Shown piece by piece: positions 2,795 to 61,754 of a stretch of 64,000 nucleotides of DNA (its first letter is position 1; every line of letters starts with the position of its first letter). Origin of the DNA: Eledone cirrhosa (taxonomy: Eukaryota); contig OZ024764.1 in NCBI GenBank assembly GCA_964016885.1, positions 28,458,001-28,522,000 of the forward strand, read 5' to 3'. The notes beneath the pieces are model-generated. The model did not search any database, was not told the DNA's origin, and was given only the letters and a program-made list of their open reading frames with translations. The position numbers and the translations under genes are program-made.

Positions 2795-2840
<46 letters not shown>

Positions 2841-2974
2841 CAGAGGTATCAACTGTAAGTTGTGAGGTCTATTCTGTATGAAGAACTCAATGTAATCCAT
2901 ATGTTGAAAATGTTATAGGTTAAGATAAATCTCAGAAAACAATAAAACATTAAAAGGAAAACAGAGTCATGATA

Positions 2975-3293
2975 TAAGTTAAAACAATGAAATAAAAAAT
3001 CAAGTCATTAGAGATATACTTCACTGCTTTACGATCGTTTCTAGATGGTGATAATACATTGTAGCTATACTTCGTTATTGATCTATGTATGTTTACAAAC
3101 TATCAGATAGAATTTTTGAAAACAGCTGGTGATATGCATGTAAGTAAATATTCTCTCTATCTGATAGTTTGTAAACTTACATAGATCAATAACTGAGTAT
3201 AGATACAATGTATTATCACCATCTGGAAACGATCGTAAAGCAGTGAAGTATATCTCTAATGACTTGATTTTTTTATTTCATTGTTTTAACTTA
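2975..3293. mobile_element. Fold-back element (~137-bp arms) carrying a hammerhead 3' half in each arm
   Basis: 2975-3111 is the reverse complement of 3156-3293; GAAA-CGATCG-TA at 3226-3237 and its mirror at 3030-3041; abuts (TA)n. Confidence 0.75.
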
Positions 3294-3311
3294 CATATAT
3301 ATATATATATA

Positions 3312-3517
3312 TAGGAACGAGTAGGACCCCGACGGCTGAGCTCAAGCCGTTTCGACGGCTAATATATATATTAGAATTAGCCAGAATTAGCCGTCGAAAC
3401 GGCTTGAGCTCAGCCGTCGGGGTCCTACTCGTTCTTATTACCCACTCTACTACCCTAAGTATTGAGTACTTTGGTGCGTTATGGTCCACCTGGTTCCTTA
3501 CCACATTTCCTCCGTTA
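3312..3517 (+). mobile_element. Family A ~200-bp hairpin element in (TA)n (Penelope pLTR-like)
   Basis: 5' palindrome 3312-3438 with GAAA-CGGC(ttgagctca)GCCG-TC at 3396-3418, then a conserved tail ...tattgagtac...ccttaccaca...gtta. Other copies at 15267, 15486, 26512, 29186, 46224, 54908, 59836. Confidence 0.8.
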
Positions 3518-3521
3518 TATA

Positions 3522-3594
<73 letters not shown>

Positions 3595-3602
<8 letters not shown>

Positions 3603-3794
3603 GTGAACAACACAAAATATAACTACTCCAATACCAAAGGTTTCTGGATCACAGACAATAATAATATAATATACATCAGTATCGGTCGTCAGACAGAGAT
3701 ATTATAACATCTCTGCCTATTATATTATTATCGTCTGTGATCCAAAAACCTTTGGTAATGGAGTAGTTATATTTTGTGTTGTTCTCTTTCTAAT
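3595..3794. mobile_element. Fold-back element (~75-bp arms) with hammerhead 3' half
   Basis: 3595-3670 is the reverse complement of 3720-3794; minus strand reads GAAA-CC(ttt)GG-TA. Confidence 0.65.
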
Positions 3795-3835
3795 TAAGTA
3801 GCTCTGTGTTATACATAGAGCACTCTTTCTTCTTT

Positions 3836-4411
3836 ATTTGTTTATTTACATGTTACTGGTTGGTTGTTTCTTCTATGTGCGTGTGTGTTTTCATTTTGTC
3901 CTTAATTGTAAGTTGTTACGAGTGGAACAGCAACATCACAACTTACAATTAAGGACAAAATGAAAACACACACGCATATAGAACAAACAACCAACCAGTA
4001 ACAAATAAATAAACGAATATAAACACACACAGACACCCGGATGTAACACATGCGCAAACTAAGCACACAACACACACACAAAAACAAGATGGCTTTGGAC
4101 AGAACAAAGGAGAGGCACAAAAAACAAAGAAAAGAATCTCCAGTCACTGAAGAGGTCACAGAATGTGTGACGAAAGAACTTTGAAAATATATAAATAACC
4201 ATCTGGTTGTGGAACCAACCAACCAACCGGAAATTTATAAATTCCTAAGTTTATAAATTTATTATAATAAATTTATTATAATAAATTGAAGTGAAACAAC
4301 TGGTGCATGTGTTTCTTGTTGGCAACATGACCCTCCCAAAGTATAACAATATCGGTTTCAACACACGTTTTCAGATAAAGAATCTTGCTAAACAAATTCA
4401 GAAACGAAATG
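3836..4411 (+). mobile_element. Family B element with hammerhead and 5' inverted repeat
   Basis: Inverted repeat ~3836-3916/3938-4013; hammerhead 4143-4185; homologous to 26051-26466 and 50539-50995; ends in (TA)n. Confidence 0.75.
4143..4185 (+). ncRNA. Type I hammerhead motif (family B)
   Basis: gtca-CTGAAGA-g-GTCACA(gaatg)TGTGAC-GAAA-GAAC-TT-tga. Confidence 0.6.
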
Positions 4412-7507: not shown

Positions 7508-7822
7508 AAGATGGAAACTATATTTATAAAACCATATTTATTTTATTATATATATTTCAAGGACGACCAAGCCATTCTAGGTGCGCTTTCATCAGATAAA
7601 ATACAAAATTTGTTTTATAAATAATAATGACACACCCATGGGAATCACACATTAACGGTCAGAAAATTCGCTGGATAGTATGTCATTATTATTTATAAAA
7701 CAAATTTTGTATTTTATCTGATGAAAGCGCACCAAGAATGGCTTGGTCGCCCTTGAAATATATATAATAAAATAAATATGGTTTTATAAATATAGTTTCC
7801 ATTTGTTAATATCTTGGTATAT
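7501..7822. mobile_element. Family D inverted-repeat element with two complete hammerheads on opposite strands
   Basis: Arms 7501-7632 and 7681-7822; hammerheads at 7540-7602 (-) and 7711-7773 (+): attttat-CTGATGA-stem II-GAAA-tatata-TA-ataaaat. Confidence 0.8.
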
Positions 7823-15266: not shown

Positions 15267-15607
15267 TAGGAAAAAGTATTTCCCCGACGGCAGAGCTCAA
15301 GCCGTTTCGACGGCTATTTCTGGACTCAGAAATAGCCGTCGAAACGGCTTGCACTCTACCGTCGAGATCATACTTTTTCCTATTACCCACTCTACTACCC
15401 TAAATATTGAGTACTCTGGTGCGTTATGGTCCATCTGGTTCCTTACCACAATTCCTTTGTTTTATATATATATATATATATACGTATAACGAAGAGCTGT
15501 GGTAAGATACCAGGTGGACCATAACGTACCAGAGTACTCAATACTTAGGATGGTAGAGTGGGTAATAAGAAAAGAGTCAGGACCCCGGCGGTTAAGCTCC
15601 AGCTAAT

Positions 15608-15775: not shown

Positions 15776-17085
15776 GATGGAGTACGTATCACGGAGAGTT
15801 GCTCCAAGTAGGGACTCTGCTTCTCCGAATTAAGAGATCTCCGATACTATGGGCATGTGGTTAAAATGTCTGAGGAAAGAATCTCTGAATTGAGAGATCA
15901 CAGCTCTGATACTACAAACATGTGGTTAGAATGTCTGAGGAAAGAATCTCTGAATTGAGAGATCACAGCTCTGATAATACAGACATGTACGTGGATCACA
16001 GCTCTGATACTATAGACACGTGGTTAGAATGTCTCAGGAAAGAATCTCTGAATTGAGAGATCACAGCTCTGATACTACAGACATGTGGTTAAAATGTCTG
16101 AGGAAAGAATCTCTGAATTGAGAGATCACAGCTCTAATACTACAAACATGTGGTTAGAATGTCTCAGGAAAGAATCTCTGAATTGAGAGATCACAGCTCT
16201 GATACTACAGACATGTGGTTAGAATGTCTGAGGAAAGAATCTCTGAATTGAGAGATCACAGCTCTAATACTACAGACATGTGGTTAGAATGTCTGAGGAA
16301 AAGATCTCTGAATTGAGAGACCACAGCTCTAATACTACAGACATGTGGTTAGAATGTCTGAGGAAAGAATCTCTGAATTGAGAGATCACAGCTCTGATGC
16401 TACAGACATGTGGTTAGAATGTCTCAGGAAAGAATCTCTGAATTGAGGGATCACAGCTCTGATACTACAGACATGTGATTAGAATGTCTCAGGAAAGAAT
16501 CTCTGAATTGAGAGATCACAGCTCTGATACTACAGACATGTGGTTGAAATGTCTCAGGAAAGAATCTCTGGATTGAGAGATCACAGCTCTGATACTACAG
16601 ACATGTGGTTAGAATGTCTGAGGAAAGAATCTCTGAATTGAGAGATCACAGCTCTGATACTACAGACATGTGGTTAGAATGTCTGAGGAAAGAATCTCTG
16701 AATTGAGAGATCACAGCTCTGATGCTACAGACATGTGGTTAGAATGTCTCAGGAAAGAATCTCTGAATTGAGGGATCACAGCTCTGATACTACAGACATG
16801 TGGTTGGAATGTCTCAGGAAAGAATCTCTGAATTGAGAGATCACAGCTCTGATACTACAGACATGTGGTTAGAATGTCTCAGGAAAGAATCTCTGAATTG
16901 AGAGATCACAGCTCTGATACTACAGACATGTGGTTAGAATGTCTCAGGAAAGAATCTCTGAATTGAGAGATCACAGCTCTGATACTACAGACATGTGGTT
17001 AGAATGTCTCAGGAAAGAATCTCTGGATTGAGAGATCACAGCTCTGATACTACAGACATGTGATTAGAATGTCTCATTAAAGAAT
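15776..17085 (+). repeat. 65-bp RTE-derived satellite (~19 copies) preceded by upstream RTE sequence
   Basis: Period 65 (tggtt at 16021, 16086, 16151); same unit as the 13027 array. Confidence 0.92.
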
Positions 17086-18589: not shown

Positions 18590-18915
<326 letters not shown>

Positions 18916-26052: not shown

Positions 26053-26460
26053 TTCGTTTCTGAATTTGTTTAGCAAGATTCTTTATCTGAAAACGTGTGT
26101 TGAAACCGATATTGTTATATTTTGCGAGGGTCATGTTGCCAATAAGAAACACACGCACCAATTGCTTTCACTTCAATTTATTATAATAAATTTAGGAATT
26201 TATAAATTTCCGGTTGGTGGCGTAGGACAGAACAAAGGAGAGGCACAAAAAAACAAAGAAAAGAATCCCCAATCACTGAAGAGGTCACAGAATGTGTGAC
26301 GAAAGAACTTTGACAATATATAAACAACCATCTGGTTGTAGAACCAACCAACCAACCGGAAATTTATAAATTCCTAAATTTATAAATTTATTATAATAAA
26401 GTGAAGTGAAAACAACTGGTGCGTGTGTTTCTTATTGGCAACATGACCCTCCCAATGTAT

Positions 26461-26621: not shown

Positions 26622-27010
26622 CTATTTAATATAGAAATGGCTTCTACATGACTAGAACTGTTTCATTCGGATGAACTCATAATAATTGTTTCTACTTTTT
26701 GCACAAGGCCAGCAACTACCCCCAGTGTATTACTGGTACTTTATTTTATCGACCCCGTGAGGATGAAAGGGAAAGTGAACGTCGGCGGTATTTGAACTCA
26801 GACTATAAAGGGCCGTAACTCTATGCTGCATAGCATGGCGTCCGACCATCTACCGATACTGCCAATCTCCCGCCCTTGATGAACTCATAATAATGAAACA
26901 GTACTAGTCCTGTAGAAACTAGTTTTGTATAGAATAATAATATTATCACTCTGCTAATGTATTAAGTATCTTTATAAACTATGGTTAATCCCCGTTTTTA
27001 CTCGAGATCT
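26622..27010 (+). mobile_element. Family C fold-back element interrupted by a SINE (26687-26877, -)
   Basis: 17-bp TSD gatgaactcataataat at 26670-26686 and 26878-26894; arms ttctacatgactagaactgtttcatt / aatgaaacagtactagtcctgtagaa. Confidence 0.75.
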
Positions 27011-27204
27011 ACATATATATATGTATATATATATGTGTTTGTGTGTGTGTATATATATATATATGGTGGTGTATGTATACATGTGTATATATGTATGTAC
27101 ATATGTATTTATGTGTATATATATGTACCAATACATATATATGTATATGTCTATATATATATATATATATGTCTGTATACATATATATTTATATATGTGT
27201 GTGC

Positions 27205-35731: not shown

Positions 35732-36368
35732 ATGAAAACATGGCGTGGTGCGTGGTTGCAAATGGGTTACATATGAATAAATTTAGTCCTTCATTAGTGA
35801 TCTTCCAGCCTTCATTGGTATTTCATGGCTTTAAAGACCATATACCTTCGGTTGGTGCGAGCAACGGCTAAAGAAAGTCGTTGGGACACGTAAATAGGGG
35901 GACCGAGCGAGACAGTAAACAAACAAAGATGGTAATGCAACGAAACTCCTTCCTCACTTTTCGTTGTATTACCATCTTTGTTTGTTTACTGTCTCGCTCG
36001 TTCCCCCTATTTACGTGTCCCAACGACTTTCTTTAGCCCTTGCTCGCACCAGCCAGAGGTATATTGTCTTTAAAGCGATGAAATACCAATGAAGGCTGGA
36101 AGATCACTGATGAAGGACTAAATTCATTTATATATATATCTATCTTCAGTTTGCTTTTATCCTTCTATGTTGTTTACTTGTCTCACTCGCTTTACGCGAC
36201 TCACTTGTCCCAATAGCTTTTTTTAGTTATTGCTCGCACCAACCTGAGGTATATGATTTTTAATGCGATGAAATACCAATTATGGTTGGCAAATCACTGA
36301 CGAGGGACTAATTTTATAATATGTAACCCATGTGCAACCACGCAGTATTCCGCTTTCTTCTCATGTTT
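35732..36368. mobile_element. Fold-back element (~170-bp arms) plus a partial tandem copy
   Basis: 35775-35945 is the reverse complement of 35958-36130; 36170-36368 repeats the right arm; CTGATGA/CTGACGA present without a downstream GAAA. Confidence 0.7.
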
Positions 36369-39927: not shown

Positions 39928-42900
39928 AATAATAATGAAATTATTGTGTACAGTGCTCAGGTGCACTACAACTCATCAAAGTTGCATGTATAGTACATAG
40001 AATAATTGTTTCTACTTTTGGCACAAGGCCAGCAATACCCCAGTGCATTACTGGCACATTATTTTATATTTTATCGACCCCGTAAGGATGAAAGGCAAAG
40101 TGAACCTCGGCGAGATTTGAATTCAGAAGGTAAAGGGCCATAACTCTATGCTGCAAAGTATGGTGTCTGACGCTCCACCGATTCTGCCAATCCATCGCCT
40201 TTAAATAATTCTATAAATTGTTTCTACGTTAGGCACAAGGCCAGCAATTACTCCAGTATATTACTGGTACTTTATTTTATACAGTAAAGCATAGCGCCCG
40301 ACCTTCTACCGATACTGCCAAATCCAACGCCCTATAGTACATAGAATAACTGTTTCTACGTTAGGCACAAAGCCAGCAATTACCCCAGTGTATTACTGGT
40401 ACCCTATTTTATACAGTAAAGCATAGCGCCCGACCTTCTACCGATACTGCCAAATCCAACGCCCTATAGTACATAGAATAACTGTTTCTACGTTAGGCAC
40501 AAGGCCAGCAATTACCCCAGTGTATTACTGGTACTTTATTTTATACAGTAAAGCATAGCGCCCGACCTTCTACCGATACTGCCAAATCCAACGCCCTATA
40601 GTACATAGAATAACTGTTTCTACTTTTGGCACAAGGCCAGCAATTACACCAGTGTATTACTGGTACCCTATTTTATACAGTAAAGCATAGCGCCCGACCT
40701 TCTACCGATACTGCCAAATCCAACGCCCTATAGTACATAGAATAACTGTTTCTACTTTTGGCACAAGGCCAGCAATTACACCAGTGTATTACTGGTACCC
40801 TATTTTATACAGTAAAGCATAGCGCCCGACCTTCTACCGATACTGCCAAATCCAACGCCCTATAGTACATAGAATAACTGTTTCTGCGTTAGGCACAAGG
40901 TCAGCAATTAACCCAGTGTATTACTGGTACCCTATTTTATACAGTAAAGCATAGCGCCCGACCTTCTACCGATACTGCCAAATCCAACGCCCTATAGTAC
41001 ATAGAATAACTGTTTCTACTTTTGGCACAAGGCCAGCAATTACACCAGTGTATTACTGGTACTTTATTTTATACAGTAAAGCATAGCGCCCGACCTTCTA
41101 CCGATACTGCCAAATCCAACGCCCTGTAGTACATAGAATAATTGTTTCTGCGTTAGGCACAAGGCCAGCAATTACACCAGTGTATTACTGGTACCCTATT
41201 TTTATACAGTAAAGCATAGCGCCCGACCTTCTACCGATACTGCCAAATCCAACGCCCTATAGTACATAGAATAACTGTTTCTACTTTTGGCACAAGGCCA
41301 GCAATTACCCCAGTCTATTACTGGTACTTTATTTTATACAGTAAAGCATAGCGCCCAACCTTCTACCGATACTGCCAAATCCAACGCCCTATAGTACATA
41401 GAATAACTGTTTCTACTTTTGGCACAAGGCCAGCAATTACTCCAGTGTATTACTGGTACTTTATTTTATACAGTAAAGCATAGCGCCCAACCTTCTACCG
41501 ATACTGCCAAATCCAACGCCCTATAGTACATAGAATAACTGTTTCTGCGTTAGGCACAAGGCCAGCAATTACCCCAGTGTATTACTGGTACCCTATTTTA
41601 TACAGTAAAGCATAGCGCCCAACCTTCTACCGATACTGCCAAATCCAACGCCCTATAGTACATAGAATAACTGTTTCTGCGTTAGGCACAAGGCCAGCAA
41701 TTACACCAGTATATTACTGGTACCCTATTTTATACAGTAAAGCATAGCGCCCAACCTTCTACCGATACTGCCAAATCCAACGCCCTATAGTACATAGAAT
41801 AACTGTTTCTGCGTTAGGCACAAGGCCAGCAATTACACCAGTATATTACTGGTACCCTATTTTATACAGTAAAGCATAGCGCCCGACCTTCTACCGATAC
41901 TGCCAAATCCAACGCCCTATAGTACATAGAATAACTGTTTCTACTTTTGGCACAAGGCCAGCAATTACTCCAGTGTATTACTGGTACCCTATTTTATACA
42001 GTAAAGCATAGCGCCCGACCTTCTACCGATACTGCCAAATCCAACGCCCTATAGTACATAGAATAACTGTTTCTACTTTTGGCACAAGGCCAGCAATTAC
42101 ACCAGTATATTACTGGTACCCTATTTTATACAGTAAAGCATAGCGCCCGACCTTCTACCGATACTGCCAAATCCAACGCCCTATAGTACATAGAATAATT
42201 GTTTCTAGTTTTGGCACAAGGCCAGCAATTACACCAGTGTATTACTGGTACTTTATTTTATACAGTAAAGCATAGCGCCCGACCTTCTACCGATACTGCC
42301 AAATCCAACGCCCTATAGTACATAGAATAACTGTTTCTACTTTTGGCACAAGGCCAGCAATTACTCCAGTGTATTACTGGTACTTTATTTTATACAGTAA
42401 AGCATAGCGCCCGACCTTCTACCGATACTGCCAAATCCAACGCCCTATAGTACATAGAATAACTGTTTCTACTTTTGGCACAAGGCCAGCAATTACTCCA
42501 GTGTATTACTGGTACCCTATTTTATACAGTAAAGCATAGCGCCCGACCTTCTACCGATACTGCCAAATCCAACGCCCTATAGTACATAGAATAACTGTTT
42601 CTGCGTTAGGCACAAGGCCAGCAATTACACCAGTATATTACTGGTACCCTATTTTATACAGTAAAGCATAGCGCCCGACCTTCTACCGATACTGCCAAAT
42701 CCAACGCCCTATAGTACATAGAATAACTGTTTCTACTTTTGGCACAAGGCCAGCAATTACTCCAGTGTATTACTGGTACTTTATTTTATACAGTAAAGCA
42801 TAGCGCCCAACCTTCTACCGATACTGCCAAATCCAACGCCCTATAGTACATAGAATAACTGTTTCTACTTTTGGCACAAGGCCAGCAATTACCCCAGTCT

Positions 42901-43650
42901 ATTACTGGTACTTTATTTTATACAGTAAAGCATAGCGCCCAACCTTCTACCGATACTGCCAAATCCAACGCCCTATAGTACATAGAATAACTGTTTCTGC
43001 GTTAGGCACAAGGCCAGCAATTACCCCAGTGTATTACTGGTACTTTATTTTATACAGTAAAGCATAGCGCCCAACCTTCTACCGATACTGCCAAATCCAA
43101 CGCCCTATAGTACATAGAATAACTGTTTCTGCGTTAGGCACAAGGCCAGCAATTACCCCAGTGTATTACTGGTACTTTATTTTATACAGTAAAGCATAGC
43201 GCCCGACCTTCTACCGATACTGCCAAATCCAACGCCCTATAGTACATAGAATAACTGTTTCTACTTTTGGCACAAGGCCAGCAATTACACCAGTGTATTA
43301 CTGGTACCCTATTTTATACAGTAAAGCATAGCGCCCGACCTTCTACCGATACTGCCAAATCCAACGCCCTATAGTACATAGAATAACTGTTTCTACTTTT
43401 GGCACAAGGCCAGCAATTACCCCTGTATATTACTGGTACTTTATTTTATACAGTAAAGCATAGCGCCCGACCTTCTACCGATACTGCCAAATCCAACGCC
43501 CTGTAGTACATAGAATAATTGTTTCTACGTTAGGCACAAGGTCAGCAATTAACCCAGTGTATTACTGGTACTTTATTTTATCGACCCCGTAAGGATGAAA
43601 GGCATAGAATAATGTACAAATGTCAGGAAAATGAACAGTGTATGAGTTTA
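39928..43650 (-). repeat. 132-bp SINE-derived satellite (~25 copies) nested in a LINE-type 3' end
   Basis: Period 132 (cctatagt at 40331, 40463, 40595); full SINE at ~40006-40200; host continues after 43603 and is colinear with 56674-56790. Confidence 0.9.
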
Positions 43651-47539: not shown

Positions 47540-47666
47540 TATATATATATATATAGACATATATATATATATATAAAATAAGATTTTGTCCAGGGCGGTG
47601 CCCCAGAATGGCCTCAGCCGGATGGCTGGACCAGGTAAAAGAGTAAAAGAGTATAATTCTACAAAC

Positions 47667-48299
47667 CTTGTTGTAATGTTGATGGTGATGATGATGATGA
47701 TGATGATGATGATGGCAATGGTGGTGGTGGTGGTGTTGTTGTTGTTGTTGTTTTTGTTGTCGTTGCTTCTATTTCTGATGATGATGATGATGGTGATGGT
47801 GGTTGTGTGAACCAGTATGTGATGTCCGTAAAACCTCCACCACCGCCGCCGCTTTCATCTGTCCACAGAGGCGTCGGCGGCGTGGTGGCGGCGGCGGCGG
47901 TGGTGGTGGTGGTGGTGGTAGTAGGGGCTGCTTTGGTGGCGGTGGTGGTGGTGGCGGCGGCGGCGGGAGTACCGAAGGCTGAGGCCGTGCAGACGACAGC
48001 GAACGGCCAGTCGCACACCTTCAGCTTCACGTTGAAGAGGGTGTTGGCAGGGCAGCTCATGGTGACCGGGTAAACACCGCCCACACAGCGTATGAACTTG
48101 TCACAGCGGCCATTGGGGTAGACAGAGAAGTCTGCACACGGTGGCGGCGGCGGTGGCGGTGGGGCTGCTGCTGCTGCTTTTGTCGACGGTGGCGGCGGCG
48201 GCGGCGTGGGCGGTGGCGGTGAGACCTGCGAGGAGACGGCGATGAGGGTGGTGACGATGGCGAGCGCGGTGGCGGCGTTCATTGTCTTGATGTTGGTGG
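47667..48299 (-). CDS. Chitin-binding protein, main exon (signal peptide, Pro-rich segment, CBM14, Thr/Ser/Pro linker)
   Basis: cgcag acceptor; MNAATALAIVTTLIAVSS (ATG at 48282); CADFSVYPNGRCDKFIRCVGG...CPANTLFNVKLKVCDWPFAVVC; G|gtttgt donor; 633 nt, phase 1-1. Confidence 0.85.
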
Positions 48300-48524
48300 C
48301 TGCGGGAGAGAGAGGGAGAGAGTATATGTAAGAGAGAGAGATAGAGAGGGAGGGAGAGAGAGTATATGTAAGAGAGAGAGAGAGAGGGAGAGTATATGTA
48401 AGAGAGAGAGATAGAGAGAGAGATAGAGAGAGGGAGAGAGAAGGAGAGTATATGTAGGAGAAAGAAAGAGAGGGAGGGAGAGAGAGTATATGTAAGAGAG
48501 AGAGAGAGGGGGAGAGTATATGTA

Positions 48525-48569
<45 letters not shown>

Positions 48570-49351
48570 GAGGGAGAGTATATGTAAGAGAGAGAGAGGG
48601 GAGGGAGAGTATATGTAAGAGAGTGAGAGAGGGAGGGAGAGAGTATATGTAAGAGAGTGAGAGAGGGAGGGAGAGAGTATATGTAAGAGAGTGAGAGAGT
48701 GTGTGTGTGCGCGTCATGATGATATTTGTTTTTGAAAAGCGCATAATAAAATACTTGGAACTCTTTTAACCATCTTATATTACATATATACATATATACA
48801 TATATACATATATACATATATACATTACATATATACATATATACATATATACATTACATATATACATATATACATATATACGTAACATATATACATATAT
48901 ACATATATACATTACATATATACATATATACATATATACATTACATATATACATATATACATATATACATATATACATATATACATATATACATTACATA
49001 TATACATATATACATATATACATTACATATATACATATATACATATATACATATATACATTACATATATACATATATACATAACATATATACATATATAC
49101 ATATATACGTAACATATATACATATATACATTACATATATACATATATACATAACATATATACATATATACATATATACATTACATATATACATATATAC
49201 ATAACATATATACATATATACATTACATATATATATATATACATATATACATATATACATTACATATATACATATATACATATATACATTACATATATAC
49301 ATATATACATATATACATATATATATGTTCTTATATTGTCCCCTATATGTA

Positions 49352-51011: not shown

Positions 51012-52622
51012 TTGAGATCCATCTGTGGTCATGTACGAGAAGATAAAACCTCTAATGCCGATATCCTAACCAAATGCAACATTGGGGGGAATTGAGACTT
51101 TCCTTATGCAATCTCAGCTTCGTTGGGCTGGCCATGTCATCCGCATGATTGACGACATAATTCCAAAATTCCTCACGTATGGTCAGTTTAACAGCGGCAA
51201 GAGGAAGACTGGTAGACCATGGCTACGATACAAGGATAAGTTGAAAACAAATCTCACTGCTCTTGCAATCCCTTTCCGTGATTGTGAACACATTGCTGCT
51301 GACAAAAAGGACTGGAGAGAAAGGTGCCGTAGTGCGATCCGGAACATTGGGGGGAATTGAGACTTTCCTTATGCAATCTCAGCTTCGTTGGGCTGGCCAT
51401 GTCATCCGCATGATTGACGACATAATTCCAAAATTCCTCACGTATGGTCAGTTTAACAGCGGCAAGAGGAAGACTGGTAGACCATGGCTACGATACAAGG
51501 ATAAGTTGAAATCAAATCTCACTGCCCTTGCAATCCCTTTCCGTGATTGTGAACACATTGCTGCTGACAAAAAGGACTGGAGAGAAAGGTGCCGTAGTGC
51601 GATCCGGAACATTGGGGGGAATTGAGACTTTCCTTATGCAATCTCAGCTTCGTTGGGCTGGCCATGTCATCCGCATGAGTGACGACATAATTCCAAAATT
51701 CCTCACGTATGGTCAGTTTAACAGCGGCAAGAGGAAGACTGGTAGACCATGGCTACGATACAAGGATAAGTTGAAATCAAATCTCACTGCCCTTGCAATC
51801 CCTTTCCGTGATTGTGAACACATTGCTGCTGACAAAAAGGACTGGAGAGAAAGGTGCCGTAGTGCGATCCGGAACATTGGGGGGAATTGAGACTTTCCTT
51901 ATGCAATCTCAGCTTCGTTGGGCTGGCCATGTCATCCGCATGAGTGACGACATAATTCCAAAATTCCTCACGTATGGTCAGTTTAACAGCGGCAAGAGGA
52001 AGACTGGTAGACCATGGCTACGATACAAGGATAAGTTGAAAACAAATCTCACTGCTCTTGCAATCCCTTTCCGTGATTGTGAACACATTGCTGCTGACAA
52101 AAAGGACTGGAGAGAAAGGTGCCGTAGTGCGATCCGGAACATTGGGGGGAATTGAGACTTTCCTTATGCAATCTCAGCTTCGTTGGGCTGGCCATGTCAT
52201 CCGCATGATTGACGACATAATTCCAAAATTCCTCACGTATGGTCAGTTTAACAGCGGCAAGAGGAAGACTGGTAGACCATGGCTACGATACAAGGATAAG
52301 TTGAAATCAAATCTCACTGCCCTTGCAATCCCTTTCCGTGATTGTGAACACATTGCTGCTGACAAAAAGGACTGGAGAGAAAGGTGCCGTAGTGCGATCC
52401 GGAGCATTGAATCCAGACGCATAGAGAAATTGCGTGTTGACCGAACAGGGACGAAGCAACGGGCCTTGATATCTGCAAGACTCTCCATAAACTGTTGATC
52501 TTGTGACCTACGTGGCTTGGTCTGTGTGTCGCTGGCGGGATTGAATTGTCGCATGAGTCACCGCCATCCAGAGAACTGAGCTTTTGTTGGGCCCTCATAC
52601 GTCGGATATCGACGGAAGAGCT

Positions 52623-53920: not shown

Positions 53921-54795
53921 TAACTTTGAATAACTTTGAAATGTTTTGGCCAGTATTGGCCCAGGCCATGTCTAACTTAATAGCACACCTGGCGAAGTCT
54001 TTCAATTCAGGATTTGGGCACCATGGCCCATTCGAGAAGAGAATTACTGTTTGCGGAGACATATCCGGGTGTGGGTGGTTTGTCCGGGATTACTTGGAGG
54101 AATTTGTCCAAAGACTTCTTGAATTTTGTGTGGTCAGTTTCTGTTTTGACGTGTCCTGGTGTGATGTTGAAGAGAGCAGGGCCGATTGAGGTGAAATAAT
54201 TGTGCCGTATTGTTGTTATGAGTTGCGATTTAGATTTTTGTATGGGACGGATAGCACGGGGCCCAAGCCTTGGGTGTATCTTGAAGGCGATGCCAACATC
54301 ATTTGGGCAGTGATGATGGAACATTTTCCACATCATGCAGATAATATAACGCTCACGGCGACGTTGGAGTGAGTAAAGTTTCAGGTTTTCTAGTCGACCC
54401 CAGTAGTCAAGGTCTGACATGCCATCTATCTTTTTCGTGATTGCCCTTTGAGGAGCTTCAAGTTTCATGATACTTTGTTTCGTGTGGGGAGACCACAGTG
54501 GACAACAGTATTCAAGGTGTGGTCGGGCAAAAGTAGAGAAGAGAAGGATAATGGTGTGGGAATCTCTCGACTGGAAGGTTCTGAGGATCCAGGAACACAT
54601 TCTGCGGGCCATGTCAACTTTGCTGCTTATATGCGTGGCCCAGCTTATGTTGCAGTCCACGGTTACTCCCAAGTCTCTGATGTTGTTAGATGCCACGAGA
54701 GTTTCCCCGGAGGGAAGGGAGTACGGGAGTTTCAGAGCATCCTCTTTTCCAAAGTGGATCAGTTCGAATTTGTCTTCGTTCAGTAACATGTTGTT
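53921..54795 (-). mobile_element. 5'-truncated CR1-group LINE with an uninterrupted ORF2 C-terminus
   Basis: NNMLLNEDK...RDLGV...RPHLEYCCPLWSP...LYSLQRRRER; 3' tail (ttcaaagtta)2. Confidence 0.9.
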
Positions 54796-54907
54796 ATATA
54801 TATATATATACATATGCATATATTATATATATATATGTGTTTATATAAATATATGCATATATTATATATATATATGTATGTGTGTGGGTTATATATATAT
54901 ATATATA

Positions 54908-59793: not shown

Positions 59794-60725
59794 ATATATA
59801 TATATATATCAGAATGGAAGTTTTAAAAACCAGTTAGACCATAACACACCAGAGTACTCAATACTTGGGGTAGTAGAGTGGGTAATATGAAAAATTTGGG
59901 ATCCTGATGGGTTAGCTCCGGCCATTTCAACAGCTAGTTGTGGTTACCTCTGATTGAAACCAGGATAAACTTATATATATTTATACACGCACACACACAT
60001 ATATATAAGTTTATCCTGTATATATATACACTTGTCTCACGTGGGACAACTCCTGTCTAAACCCATGCTAGCGTGGAAGATAGACGTTAAACGATGATGA
60101 TATACACACACACAGACGTGTATGTATGTATATATATATATACATACATACATATATGTGTATATATATATATATATATACATACATACATATGTGTATG
60201 TGTGTATATATATATATATACATACATACATTATGTGTGTATATATATATATATAATATATAGTTTACCAGTATAGAAATATAAAACTTCCACTGTTGAA
60301 TCATAATATTTTAATATTCTCTATTATTTCAGAATAGCAGATGACATTGACAGAAAAGAGCTTTTAACTTCAGATCCATCATCAAAATCAGATTTTAAAA
60401 GACTAAGATGACATTTTACACAGAACTCCTAGAAGTCTTTTATATAAATATTTGGTGAATTCCAATGAAATATTTCTTCTGAACTGAGGTTCATAGAAAA
60501 ATATCTTTTCTTCACTGTCTGGATTGTGTGCATGAAGATTCTGCATTCATATTAAACTTGGATGAATTTACAAAGGAATTTGCACCACTTTCAGATCACA
60601 GTTGATGGAAATATTAGTTAGAAATAACTATAAAAAAAAGACCAAGATAAATATCTATATTTTGTGCTGAGAAAAGAATAATTGTAAGAACCCTTGAAAT
60701 ATTGATTTTTGTTTTTCCAGAAGAG

Positions 60726-61754
60726 ATGCCGAGAGCGAAAGGAAAATCATTTTATAAGTGTGACATCTGCAAGAAGTCATTCCTTCAGAAAAGTAACTTA
60801 ACTACACACAAACGTACTCATACGGGAGAGAAACCACATCAGTGTGATATCTGTGGTAAAACATTCTCATGTAAGAGTCACTTAACTACGCACAAATATA
60901 GTCATACAGGAGAGAAACCATTCAGATGTGAGATCTGTGGAATATCATTCTCCGACAAAAGGAATTTAATGAGACATAAGTATGTACATACTGGAGAGAA
61001 ACCATATCAGTGTGATATCTGTGATAAATCATTCTCTCAAGCAGGTAGTTTATCTAAACACAAATTTATTCACACTGGAGAGAAACCATATCGTTGTGAT
61101 ACCTGTGGCAAATCATTCTCTCGTAAATATCATTTAACTTCACACAAATATATTCATACAGGAGAAAAGCCATTTCCGTGTGATATCTGTGGGAAATCCT
61201 TTTCTCATGCATGCAATTTAACTACACATAAATATATTCATACAGGCGAGAAGCCATATCACTGTGATATCTGTGGAAAATCATTCTCTCAGGGAATTAG
61301 CTTAAGAACACATAAATACAGTCATACAGGAGAGAAACCACATCGCTGTGATATCTGTGGAAAATCATTCGCTCAAAAAAGTAACTTAACTACACACAAC
61401 TATATTCATTTGGGAGAGAACCCATATCACTGTGATATCTGTGGTAAAACATTCCCTCGGGCAAGTCGCTTGTCTAATCACAAATATATGCATACAGGAG
61501 AGAAACCACATCGCTGTGATATCTGTGGTAAATCATTCGCTCAAAAAAGTAACTTAGCTAGACATAACTATATTCATTTTGGAGAGAAACCATATCCCTG
61601 TGAAATCTGTGGTAAAACCTTCTTTCGTGCAAGTCGTTTGTCTAATCACAAATACAGTCATACAGGGGAAAAACCACATCACTGTGATACCTGTGGTAAA
61701 TCTTACGCTCACAAAAGTAACTTAACTAGGCATAAATGCATTCATACAGGATAG
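60726..61754 (+). CDS. C2H2 zinc-finger protein, 12 tandem fingers, 342 aa
   Basis: Repeated CxxC-x12-HxxxH with TGEKP linkers; ATG at 60726; candidate acceptors at 60332 and 60720. Confidence 0.93.
   Translation: MPRAKGKSFYKCDICKKSFLQKSNLTTHKRTHTGEKPHQCDICGKTFSCKSHLTTHKYSHTGEKPFRCEICGISFSDKRNLMRHKYVHTGEKPYQCDICDKSFSQAGSLSKHKFIHTGEKPYRCDTCGKSFSRKYHLTSHKYIHTGEKPFPCDICGKSFSHACNLTTHKYIHTGEKPYHCDICGKSFSQGISLRTHKYSHTGEKPHRCDICGKSFAQKSNLTTHNYIHLGENPYHCDICGKTFPRASRLSNHKYMHTGEKPHRCDICGKSFAQKSNLARHNYIHFGEKPYPCEICGKTFFRASRLSNHKYSHTGEKPHHCDTCGKSYAHKSNLTRHKCIHTG

What the first reader, a model, noticed from the sequence alone, without database searches (positions are those of the whole stretch)
2975..3794. 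Elements fold back exactly on hammerhead stem II, deleting the CUGANGA half
Seen: four unrelated palindromic elements (2975-3293; family A, e.g. 3312-3438; 3595-3794; 26622-26910) have GAAA-[stem III]-UH in the arms (CGATCG-TA, CGGC..GCCG-TC, CC..GG-TA, CAG..CTG-TA), while the position where CUGANGA should be holds the mirror copy. The symmetry axis lies inside what would be stem II. Inference: nascent cDNA snaps back on the stem II hairpin and self-primes, so ribozyme structure sets the inversion point and creates MITE-like hairpins from retroelements. The half-ribozymes could be cleaved in trans by intact copies.
Basis: partly seen in the sequence, partly recalled or inferred. Interest (0 to 1): 0.75.

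Follow-up and report, generated by a model that had tools for sequence, protein, structure and literature searches.

The report
Penelope stubs end at RNA start
The four hairpins are short head-to-head end pieces of abundant repeats (two traced to protein-coding Penelope-like jumping genes, two likely so), and their centres likely mark where the element's capped RNA begins rather than a ribozyme stem, so the two halves were likely copied separately from that RNA instead of folding back.

Summary
The palindromes and their hammerhead 3' halves are real. Family A and element 1 trace to Hydra-clade Penelope-like elements (PLEs); elements 3 and 4 share the architecture, but no ORF was linked. The claimed rule fails: element 1 keeps its core (3116), element 3 keeps a whole decayed motif (minus strand, 3692), element 4 is split by a later insert. 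A stem II snap-back product has 0 genome-wide matches against 15,019 family A tails. Arms pile up at a fixed site (family A: 48 of 90 at -45..-34), with an extra G and a TATA-like box about 30 nt upstream in family A and element 4: likely the capped transcription start. In family A it lies inside loop II, hence the stem II impression. In 17 of 59 pairs the tail-less arm reaches further, which one self-primed cDNA cannot give. The architecture is published; the start-site, two-primer reading was not found in seven literature searches, but this scan reached it before on other DNA, including this genome.

The parts
2838..2974 (-). Element 1: one-sided tail (about 135 nt) on the inverted arm, abutting (TA)n; in the parent it runs on into the ORF
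   Evidence: (L258)
2975..3111 (-). Element 1: inverted arm; GAAA-CGATCG-TA at 3041; inner end inside the long stem II / loop II region
3113..3293 (+). Element 1: direct arm starting in the 5' strand of stem I; U3-A8 core TTGAAAA at 3116-3122, long stem II, GAAA at 3226; tail-less end into (TA)n
3314..3363 (-). Family A: tail-less inverted arm, inner end at -33 from the predicted cut site
3364..3381 (.). Family A junction filler: short TA run plus a duplicated 10-mer of the right arm, typical of end-joining (inference)
3382..3435 (+). Family A: direct arm from -37; GAAA at 3396, stem III, predicted cut after 3418
3436..3517 (+). Family A: 82-nt tail; a 39-nt piece has 15,019 exact matches in the genome
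3595..3712 (-). Element 3: tail-less inverted arm with a complete but decayed hammerhead motif (CTGACGA at 3692, GAAA at 3644)
3708..3835 (+). Element 3: direct arm starting at the family's pile-up site, with an internal loss of about 20 nt that removes the core, AAAA for GAAA at 3745, tail from 3795
26622..26686 (-). Element 4: tail-less inverted arm, truncated inside the core (keeps ATGA and stem II)
26687..26877 (+). Later inserted dispersed repeat (SINE-like, inference) with a 17-bp target duplication at 26670-26686 and 26878-26894
26893..27013 (+). Element 4: direct arm from the end of stem II (GAAA at 26895) plus decayed tail

Best explanation
The four hairpins are head-to-head, 5'-truncated end pieces of abundant repeats with a tail on one arm only (two families traced to Hydra-clade Penelope-like retrotransposons, two likely so), and they likely form when both ends of a cut (TA)n target prime reverse transcription at two sites flanking the tail, the cDNAs run off the likely capped start of the RNA or stop earlier, and are then likely joined by end-joining. 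Shown: parents, two fixed 3' ends, variable inner junctions, pile-up sites, extra G, TATA-like boxes, either arm longer. Inferred: transcription start, cap origin of the G, two priming events, joining pathway. In family A the inferred start lies in loop II of the hammerhead, so most stubs hold only the 3' half; in elements 3 and 4 it lies at or just before stem I; in element 1 the site is weakly defined.
For: Identity: family A parent encodes RT plus C-terminal GIY-YIG with DKT, RLRWR, CxCx5C linker, CxxC and CxH; element 1 parent likewise; these are the Hydra features in PMC8557442 section 11. Pile-up: of 90 position-ordered family A tail arms, 48 end at -45..-34, 2 at -99..-46, 6 beyond -100; 39 of 59 partner arms end at -46..-33; arms without a partner end there too (L192, L222, L223, L232, L236, L244). 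Element 4: 10 of 50 at -45, the first base of stem I; element 3: 8 of 50 at -70/-69. Extra G: element 4, 75 G of 100 rows with parental C excluded by the pattern; 26 G against 15 A/T among rows not explained by the other arm (hand count; P about 1e-8). Family A at -41: 36 G, 10 A, 54 C of 100 rows (C is parental in one subfamily); unambiguous 23 G against 8 A; three loci have G on both arms with 1-3 nt between (hand count). TATAAATA lies 30 nt before the element 4 site and TATTTAAA 29 nt before -41 in L165 and L170. Extra G marks the cap in full-length L1 insertions (PMC11702581). The tail-less arm reaches at least 4 nt further 5' in 17 of 59 pairs, the tail arm in 18, equal in 24. Both strands primed and two initiation sites flanking the tail were shown in vitro for a Poseidon PLE (PMC11167929). 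PLE promoters lie in the pLTR (PMC2377424).
Against: No RNA 5'-end data were obtained. Element 1 has no clear wall (27 of 50 read through, 4 of 50 start at the candidate site, by eye) and no G excess (2 G of 9 rows). The TATA-like box is lost in the C3·A8 subfamily of family A (18 of 25 long copies read TATTCATTTA; sample biased by the query), yet its stubs stop at the same place. The family A peak is 12 nt wide. An RT that adds C at any end would mimic a cap. Arms share the subfamily type in 40 of 41 pairs against 0.36 expected if independent, so the two cDNAs come from one RNA or one source, which self-priming also predicts. Two recurrent junctions (element 4, about a third of rows; family A, about a quarter of rows) fit a 2-4-bp terminal fold-back as well as annealing of two cDNAs. 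Three of the 17 'tail-less arm longer' calls (L161, L188, L219) are artefacts of filler or internal deletion, and later asymmetric deletion could add others. No ORF was linked to elements 3 or 4.
Confidence: 0.7

Rival explanations
1. One reading: nascent cDNA snaps back on the stem II hairpin and self-primes, so ribozyme structure sets the inversion point.
For: Family A centres do cluster between the two strands of stem II. A few junctions use helix symmetry as microhomology (L166, L174, L205). Self-priming is the published hypothesis for PLE palindromes (PMC3846280 Discussion).
Against: 0 matches for mirror arm plus retained loop II (exact pattern, so diverged cases could be missed). Only 8 of 90 tail arms reach beyond -46, so most cDNAs never copied the 5' strand of stem II. 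Elements 1, 3 and 4 pile up at or before stem I. Solo arms end at the same site.
Confidence: 0.04
2. One cDNA runs off the RNA 5' end, folds back through 2-4 terminal base pairs, copies itself, and the second end is cut at the tail boundary by the endonuclease.
For: Recurrent junctions fit a short terminal hairpin. Arms are subfamily-concordant in 40 of 41 pairs. In element 4 the tail arm is usually the run-off arm (L315, L334, L383). EN-mediated resolution of the tail is suggested in PMC8557442.
Against: In at least 14 of 59 family A pairs the tail-less arm carries sequence that the tail arm lacks, 10 of them by 20 nt or more. In L061 the tail-less copy is 2.8 kb and the tailed inverted copy about 0.9 kb. 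Three loci have the extra G on both arms. One pair mixes two subfamily types (L180).
Confidence: 0.17
3. The pile-up is a reverse-transcriptase pause or an RNA processing site (structure, bound protein or splice acceptor), not a transcription start.
For: The family A site reads like a pyrimidine tract plus AG (sequence), the peak is broad, and a PLE intron end maps to helix I in D. virilis (PMC4209133).
Against: Does not explain the extra G or the TATA-like box at -29/-30 in two families. No common upstream exon joins the site in the listed copies.
Confidence: 0.07
4. MITEs amplified as hairpins by a DNA transposon or as master palindromes.
For: High copy number, TA-rich flanks, some recurrent junctions.
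Against: Arms are PLE sequence continuous with RT/EN ORFs. Junctions are highly varied. Ends are asymmetric because of the tail. 31 of 90 tail copies had no adjacent partner arm detected.
Confidence: 0.02

Closest known systems
Hydra clade of C-terminal-EN Penelope-like elements, including Hydra-1_Obim (Craig et al. 2021, PMC8557442; sections 6 and 11, passages and File S1 rows seen)
   Same: RT with DKT and RW(K/R), CxCx5C linker, C-terminal GIY-YIG with CxxC and CxH, (TA)n targets, adjacent inverted 5'-truncated copy, one-sided tail, hammerhead in the pLTR.
   Different: Tails here are about 65-135 nt against 30-40 nt described. Cores are U3-A8 or C3·A8 in two families, whereas Hydra hammerheads are described as canonical. 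The start-site pile-up was not in the parts read. Whether family A or element 1 equals Hydra-1_Obim was not tested.
Inverted pLTR with palindromic junction in Adineta vaga Penelope (Arkhipova et al. 2013, PMC3846280; parts 1-4 of 5 read)
   Same: Head-to-head repeats, palindromes at the junction, tail, TATA and Inr-like motifs in the pLTR.
   Different: That paper reads the palindromes as self-priming, possibly on an antisense template; the data here favour two primed cDNAs ending at a capped sense-RNA start.
PAc Poseidon element in vitro (Frangieh et al. 2024, PMC11167929; parts 1-2 of 4 read)
   Same: Both DNA strands cut and extended; two internal initiation sites bound the tail; hammerhead just upstream of tail and ORF start.
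   Different: Different clade. No reads ending at the ribozyme cut site were found there, whereas 8 of 90 family A arms end at it. Joining of the two cDNAs was not shown.
PLE hammerheads, including the U3-A8 variant and dual motifs on opposite strands (Cervera and de la Pena 2014, PMC4209133; passages seen)
   Same: Type I motif in pLTRs, U3-A8 covariation, short palindromic helix III (element 1), pairs on opposite strands 100-700 bp apart.
   Different: Very long stem II (element 1), a stable 4-bp-plus stem III and a promoter-like region inside loop II (family A), and a C3·A8 mismatch subfamily.
L1 twin priming and cap-derived extra G (PMC11702581; passages seen)
   Same: Second RT primed from the reciprocal DNA end; extra G at full-length 5' junctions; microhomology joins.
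   Different: L1 gives an inversion of adjacent segments; here both primers start near the same RNA region, giving an inverted duplication.

Membership tests
Hydra-clade EN+ PLE | PLE-type RT with DKT motif and RWK-type motif | tested here: met
   Family A: HSDKT and RLRWR. Element 1: HSDKT and RMRW. By inspection; Pfam gave 0 families for two fragments.
Hydra-clade EN+ PLE | C-terminal GIY-YIG EN with CxCx5C linker, CxxC and CxH | tested here: met
   Family A CNCPVGSIC, CNLC, CKH; element 1 CNCRNRSIC, CRLC.
Hydra-clade EN+ PLE | Phylogenetic placement with reference Hydra RTs | not tested
   No tree with reference sequences was built.
Hydra-clade EN+ PLE | ORF linked to the pLTR for elements 3 and 4 | tested here: inconclusive
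   No contiguous ORF in the fetched loci; nearby RT/EN hits were separated by (TA)n or not shown to belong.
EN+ PLE insertion unit | Adjacent inverted 5'-truncated copy and one-sided tail | tested here: met
   59 of 90 family A tail copies have an adjacent tail-less inverted arm; same layout in the other three families.
EN+ PLE insertion unit | Insertion into (TA)n | tested here: met
   Outer ends abut TA runs in most listed loci.
Type I hammerhead ribozyme | Core CUGANGA / GAAA / UH, or compensated U3-A8 | tested here: met
   Element 3: 30 of 40 CTGAYGA; element 1: 39 of 44 TTGAAAA; element 4: CTGATGA in 23 of 53 loose matches, many of them false; family A: 5 U3-A8 and 30 C3·A8 of 37. The C3·A8 subfamily does not meet the core pair.
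Type I hammerhead ribozyme | Three helices around the core | tested here: inconclusive
   Unconstrained fold gives the three-way junction for L170 only; element 4 only with the core held unpaired; element 1 stems I and II only; element 3 not as a full junction. No Rfam hammerhead match.
Type I hammerhead ribozyme | Self-cleavage | not testable with these tools
   Indirect only: 8 of 90 family A arms end at -1..+1, 1.5 expected, P=1.5e-4; the site is also the foot of the stem III hairpin.
MITE (DNA transposon derivative) | Fixed symmetric TIRs from a transposase element, uniform length, fixed TSD | tested here: not met
   Asymmetric tail, variable junctions, arms continuous with RT/EN ORFs.
Non-LTR retrozyme | Tandem units each with a complete hammerhead | tested here: not met
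   The window elements are inverted pairs, not tandem units; definition from bioRxiv 10.64898/2026.07.22.740005, part 1 of 5.

The most novel reading that the evidence does not exclude
Family A has its promoter nested inside loop II of its hammerhead. The capped mRNA then begins with only the substrate half and keeps its cap, a whole ribozyme forms only in the read-through 3' copy, and the 5' half-ribozyme is cut in trans or over long range by an enzyme half. The excess of cDNAs ending at the cut site, 7 of 8 in the subfamily whose long copies mostly carry the C3·A8 mismatch, would be the genomic record of such cleavage, possibly by U3-A8 relatives.
Probability: 0.15. Interest if true: 0.7.

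Novelty: new member of a known kind. Interest (0 to 1): 0.42.

Why it matters
How PLEs make their inverted pLTR is an open question; the published proposal is self-priming. Thousands of independent stubs act as a natural 5'-end map. They give base-level predictions (capped starts at family A -41/-45 and at the first base of stem I in element 4, two primed ends, one RNA source) that CAGE and an in vitro assay can test. The promoter inside loop II of family A offers a simple way for an mRNA to escape its own ribozyme.

Tried and rejected
The repeat finder on the whole window was swamped by microsatellites; masking and self-BLAST worked. Rfam: no hammerhead among the 150 listed of 568 matches, none among 64 matches in 2960-4330, 0 matches in L312. 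Pfam: 0 families for the RT and EN fragments. My own strict hammerhead descriptor found one unrelated window hit (12475) and missed the decayed element 3 motif. The first truncation map over-extended through palindromes and was redone more strictly; for elements 1, 3 and 4 it still stops early at internal indels and subfamily differences, and six element 3 loci (L369-L374) are duplicates of one region. Relatedness of family A and element 4 tails: a shared short motif, but alignment score 30 against shuffle maximum 38, so not shown. One search returned no pairs because of a script error; one search replaced it. Covariation counts on alignment A1 were not obtained. Extending eight loci found no ORF for elements 3 or 4. 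Rows dropped before hand counts: 2 parent-like rows; rows whose G could come from the opposite arm or from microhomology were set aside as ambiguous. Naiad clade considered and rejected because the EN is C-terminal. Literature searches gave no paper mapping PLE inversion points to a capped start; the library lacks most subscription papers, and File S2 (hammerheads) of PMC8557442 was not among the files held.

Full report
Setting. The window lies in a 3.0-Gb, TA-microsatellite-rich animal genome (octopus-like by inference). After masking 16,729 bases of simple repeats, self-BLAST listed 24 local inverted pairs, including three of the four elements named. Positions below are counted from the predicted hammerhead cut site (0).

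Observation. The arms do carry GAAA-stem III-UH. But element 1 keeps a core TTGAAAA at 3116, element 3 keeps CTGACGA at 3692 on the minus strand, and element 4 is split by a 191-nt repeat with a 17-bp target duplication. The palindrome at 7511-7802 keeps CTGATGA in both arms.

Parents. A search with the family A arm returned copies that continue upstream (L023, L028), and a search with that upstream part gave 30 loci. They read stem I, a 7-nt core, a stem II 5' strand, a loop of about 30 nt, then the arm seen in the window. The core census gave 30 CTGAGAA, 3 TTGAGAA, 2 TTGATAA and 2 others of 37; this set is biased to one subfamily, and among the 7 long copies of the position-ordered sample the split is 3 C to 4 U (by eye). 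L170 folds unconstrained into the three-way junction. [quoted passage not shown] Element 1 parents have TTGAAAA in 39 of 44 and a stem II region of about 100 nt; tail, ORF, 3' UTR and second hammerhead are contiguous in L258, L399 and L400. Element 3 parents have CTGAYGA in 30 of 40, and element 4 parents CTGATGA; no ORF was linked to either. Exact-pattern counts: 15,019 (family A tail), 878, 779 and 5,584. The U3-A8 core and opposite-strand hammerhead pairs are described in PMC4209133 (passages). The inverted truncated copy and one-sided tail are standard PLE anatomy (PMC8557442 section 6; PMC3846280).

Where the arms end. I took the first 90 of the 100 listed family A tail matches, which are ordered by position and so unselected for length. 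Tail arms: 6 beyond -100, 2 at -99..-46, 48 at -45..-34, 14 at -33..-2, 8 at -1..+1, 9 at +2..+16, 3 tail only. 59 of 90 have an adjacent tail-less inverted arm, and 39 of those end at -46..-33. The two arm types start about 80 nt apart yet stop at the same place, and solo arms do too, so the site belongs to the template. For the other families I took 50 loci each (30 first rows plus 20 of the next rows). Element 4: 10 at -45, the first base of stem I. Element 3: 8 at -70/-69 by script, about 14 by eye, 7 nt before stem I. Element 1: 4 at a site 2 nt before stem I, 27 read through. The site is thus inside loop II in one family and at or before stem I in the others.

Test of snap-back on stem II. 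Such a product would be the mirrored arm followed by the parental loop II. The pattern had 0 matches in the genome. Most cDNAs stop before the 5' strand of stem II. The tail-less arm reaches further 5' in 17 of 59 pairs (at least 14 after removing three artefacts), the tail arm in 18, and 24 are level. A single cDNA cannot supply both the tail and the longer partner. Junctions show 0-4 nt overlaps or fillers of 1-27 nt. Against a simple two-RNA picture, the arms share the subfamily type in 40 of 41 pairs, so both come from one RNA or one source; L180 is the exception.

Why that site. In element 4 parents TATAAATA begins 30 nt before the site; in family A copies L165 and L170 TATTTAAA begins 29 nt before -41, overlapping the end of the stem II 5' strand. 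The -45 and -41 positions resemble an initiator (consensus recalled, not from a call). The base just before the site is G far more often than expected: element 4, 75 of 100 rows, 26 of 41 after setting aside rows explained by the other arm (hand count); family A, 36 G to 10 A, 23 to 8 unambiguous, with three loci carrying G on both arms (hand count); element 3, 8 G rows to 3 real A rows, 5 G unambiguous. Element 1 shows no excess. An extra G reflects the cap in full-length L1 insertions (PMC11702581, passages). D. virilis Penelope has its promoter in the pLTR (PMC2377424, passages). L222 and L223 show units that start at -44 and run into the ORF start.

Mechanism. Shown elsewhere in vitro: a PLE protein cuts and extends both strands and starts at two internal sites bounding the tail (PMC11167929, parts 1-2). 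Inferred here: the protein binds the pLTR copy at the 5' end of its mRNA, both target ends prime, the short cDNAs run off the capped start or stop earlier, and the two are joined head to head. Priming on the 3' pLTR copy gives long or full-length arms (L061, L399). A terminal 2-4-bp fold-back may account for some recurrent junctions; sequence alone cannot separate it from annealing of two cDNAs. PMC3846280 proposes self-priming for PLE palindromes.

Cut-site peak. 8 of 90 family A arms end at -1..+1 against 1.5 expected. This may record cleavage, but the site is also the foot of the stem III hairpin, and 7 of the 8 carry the marker of the subfamily whose long copies mostly have C3·A8.

Novelty and verdict. 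The elements are new members of a known kind. The start-site, two-primer reading was not found in searches. My reading was noted before I looked at earlier scan findings; those include the same reading in other genomes and in this one and are not independent support. The distinctive point here is the inferred promoter inside loop II of family A. Interest 0.42.

Noticed in passing
window 7511-7802; single copies near 18814, 35471, 17729 (-), 52694 (-): Another hammerhead-type family (CTGATGA ... GAAATATATATAA); at 7511-7802 both arms keep the core.
   Followed up: partly
window 4147, 26276, 50782; inverted pairs 26123-26454 and 35749-36344: Further PLE-like end pieces with CTGANGA motifs and inverted arms.
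   Followed up: no
window 15375-15573: Two family A tails facing each other across a TA run: likely two separate insertions into one microsatellite, not one palindrome.
   Followed up: partly
window 40007-43602: Tandem array of about 132-bp units related to the repeat inserted in element 4.
   Followed up: no
window 15870-16700: Tandem array of about 65-bp units containing CTGAGGA.
   Followed up: no
window 60651-61754: 367-aa open frame of tandem C2H2 zinc fingers.
   Followed up: no
window 51245-52498 and 54007-54822: Four tandem 265-bp copies of a LINE-like C-terminal fragment, and a separate LINE-like RT fragment on the minus strand (family names not tested).
   Followed up: no
window 47659-48765 (-): Cysteine-spaced segment (CADFSVYPNGRCDKFIRC...) resembling a chitin-binding domain within low-complexity sequence (resemblance recalled).
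   Followed up: no
L228 and L238: Same junction at two loci: tail arm starts at the predicted cut site while the partner arm reaches -40.
   Followed up: partly
L399 2127-4125: Element 1 ORF has a long Asn/His/Thr-rich stretch between RT and EN, like the N-rich inserts described in PMC3846280.
   Followed up: no
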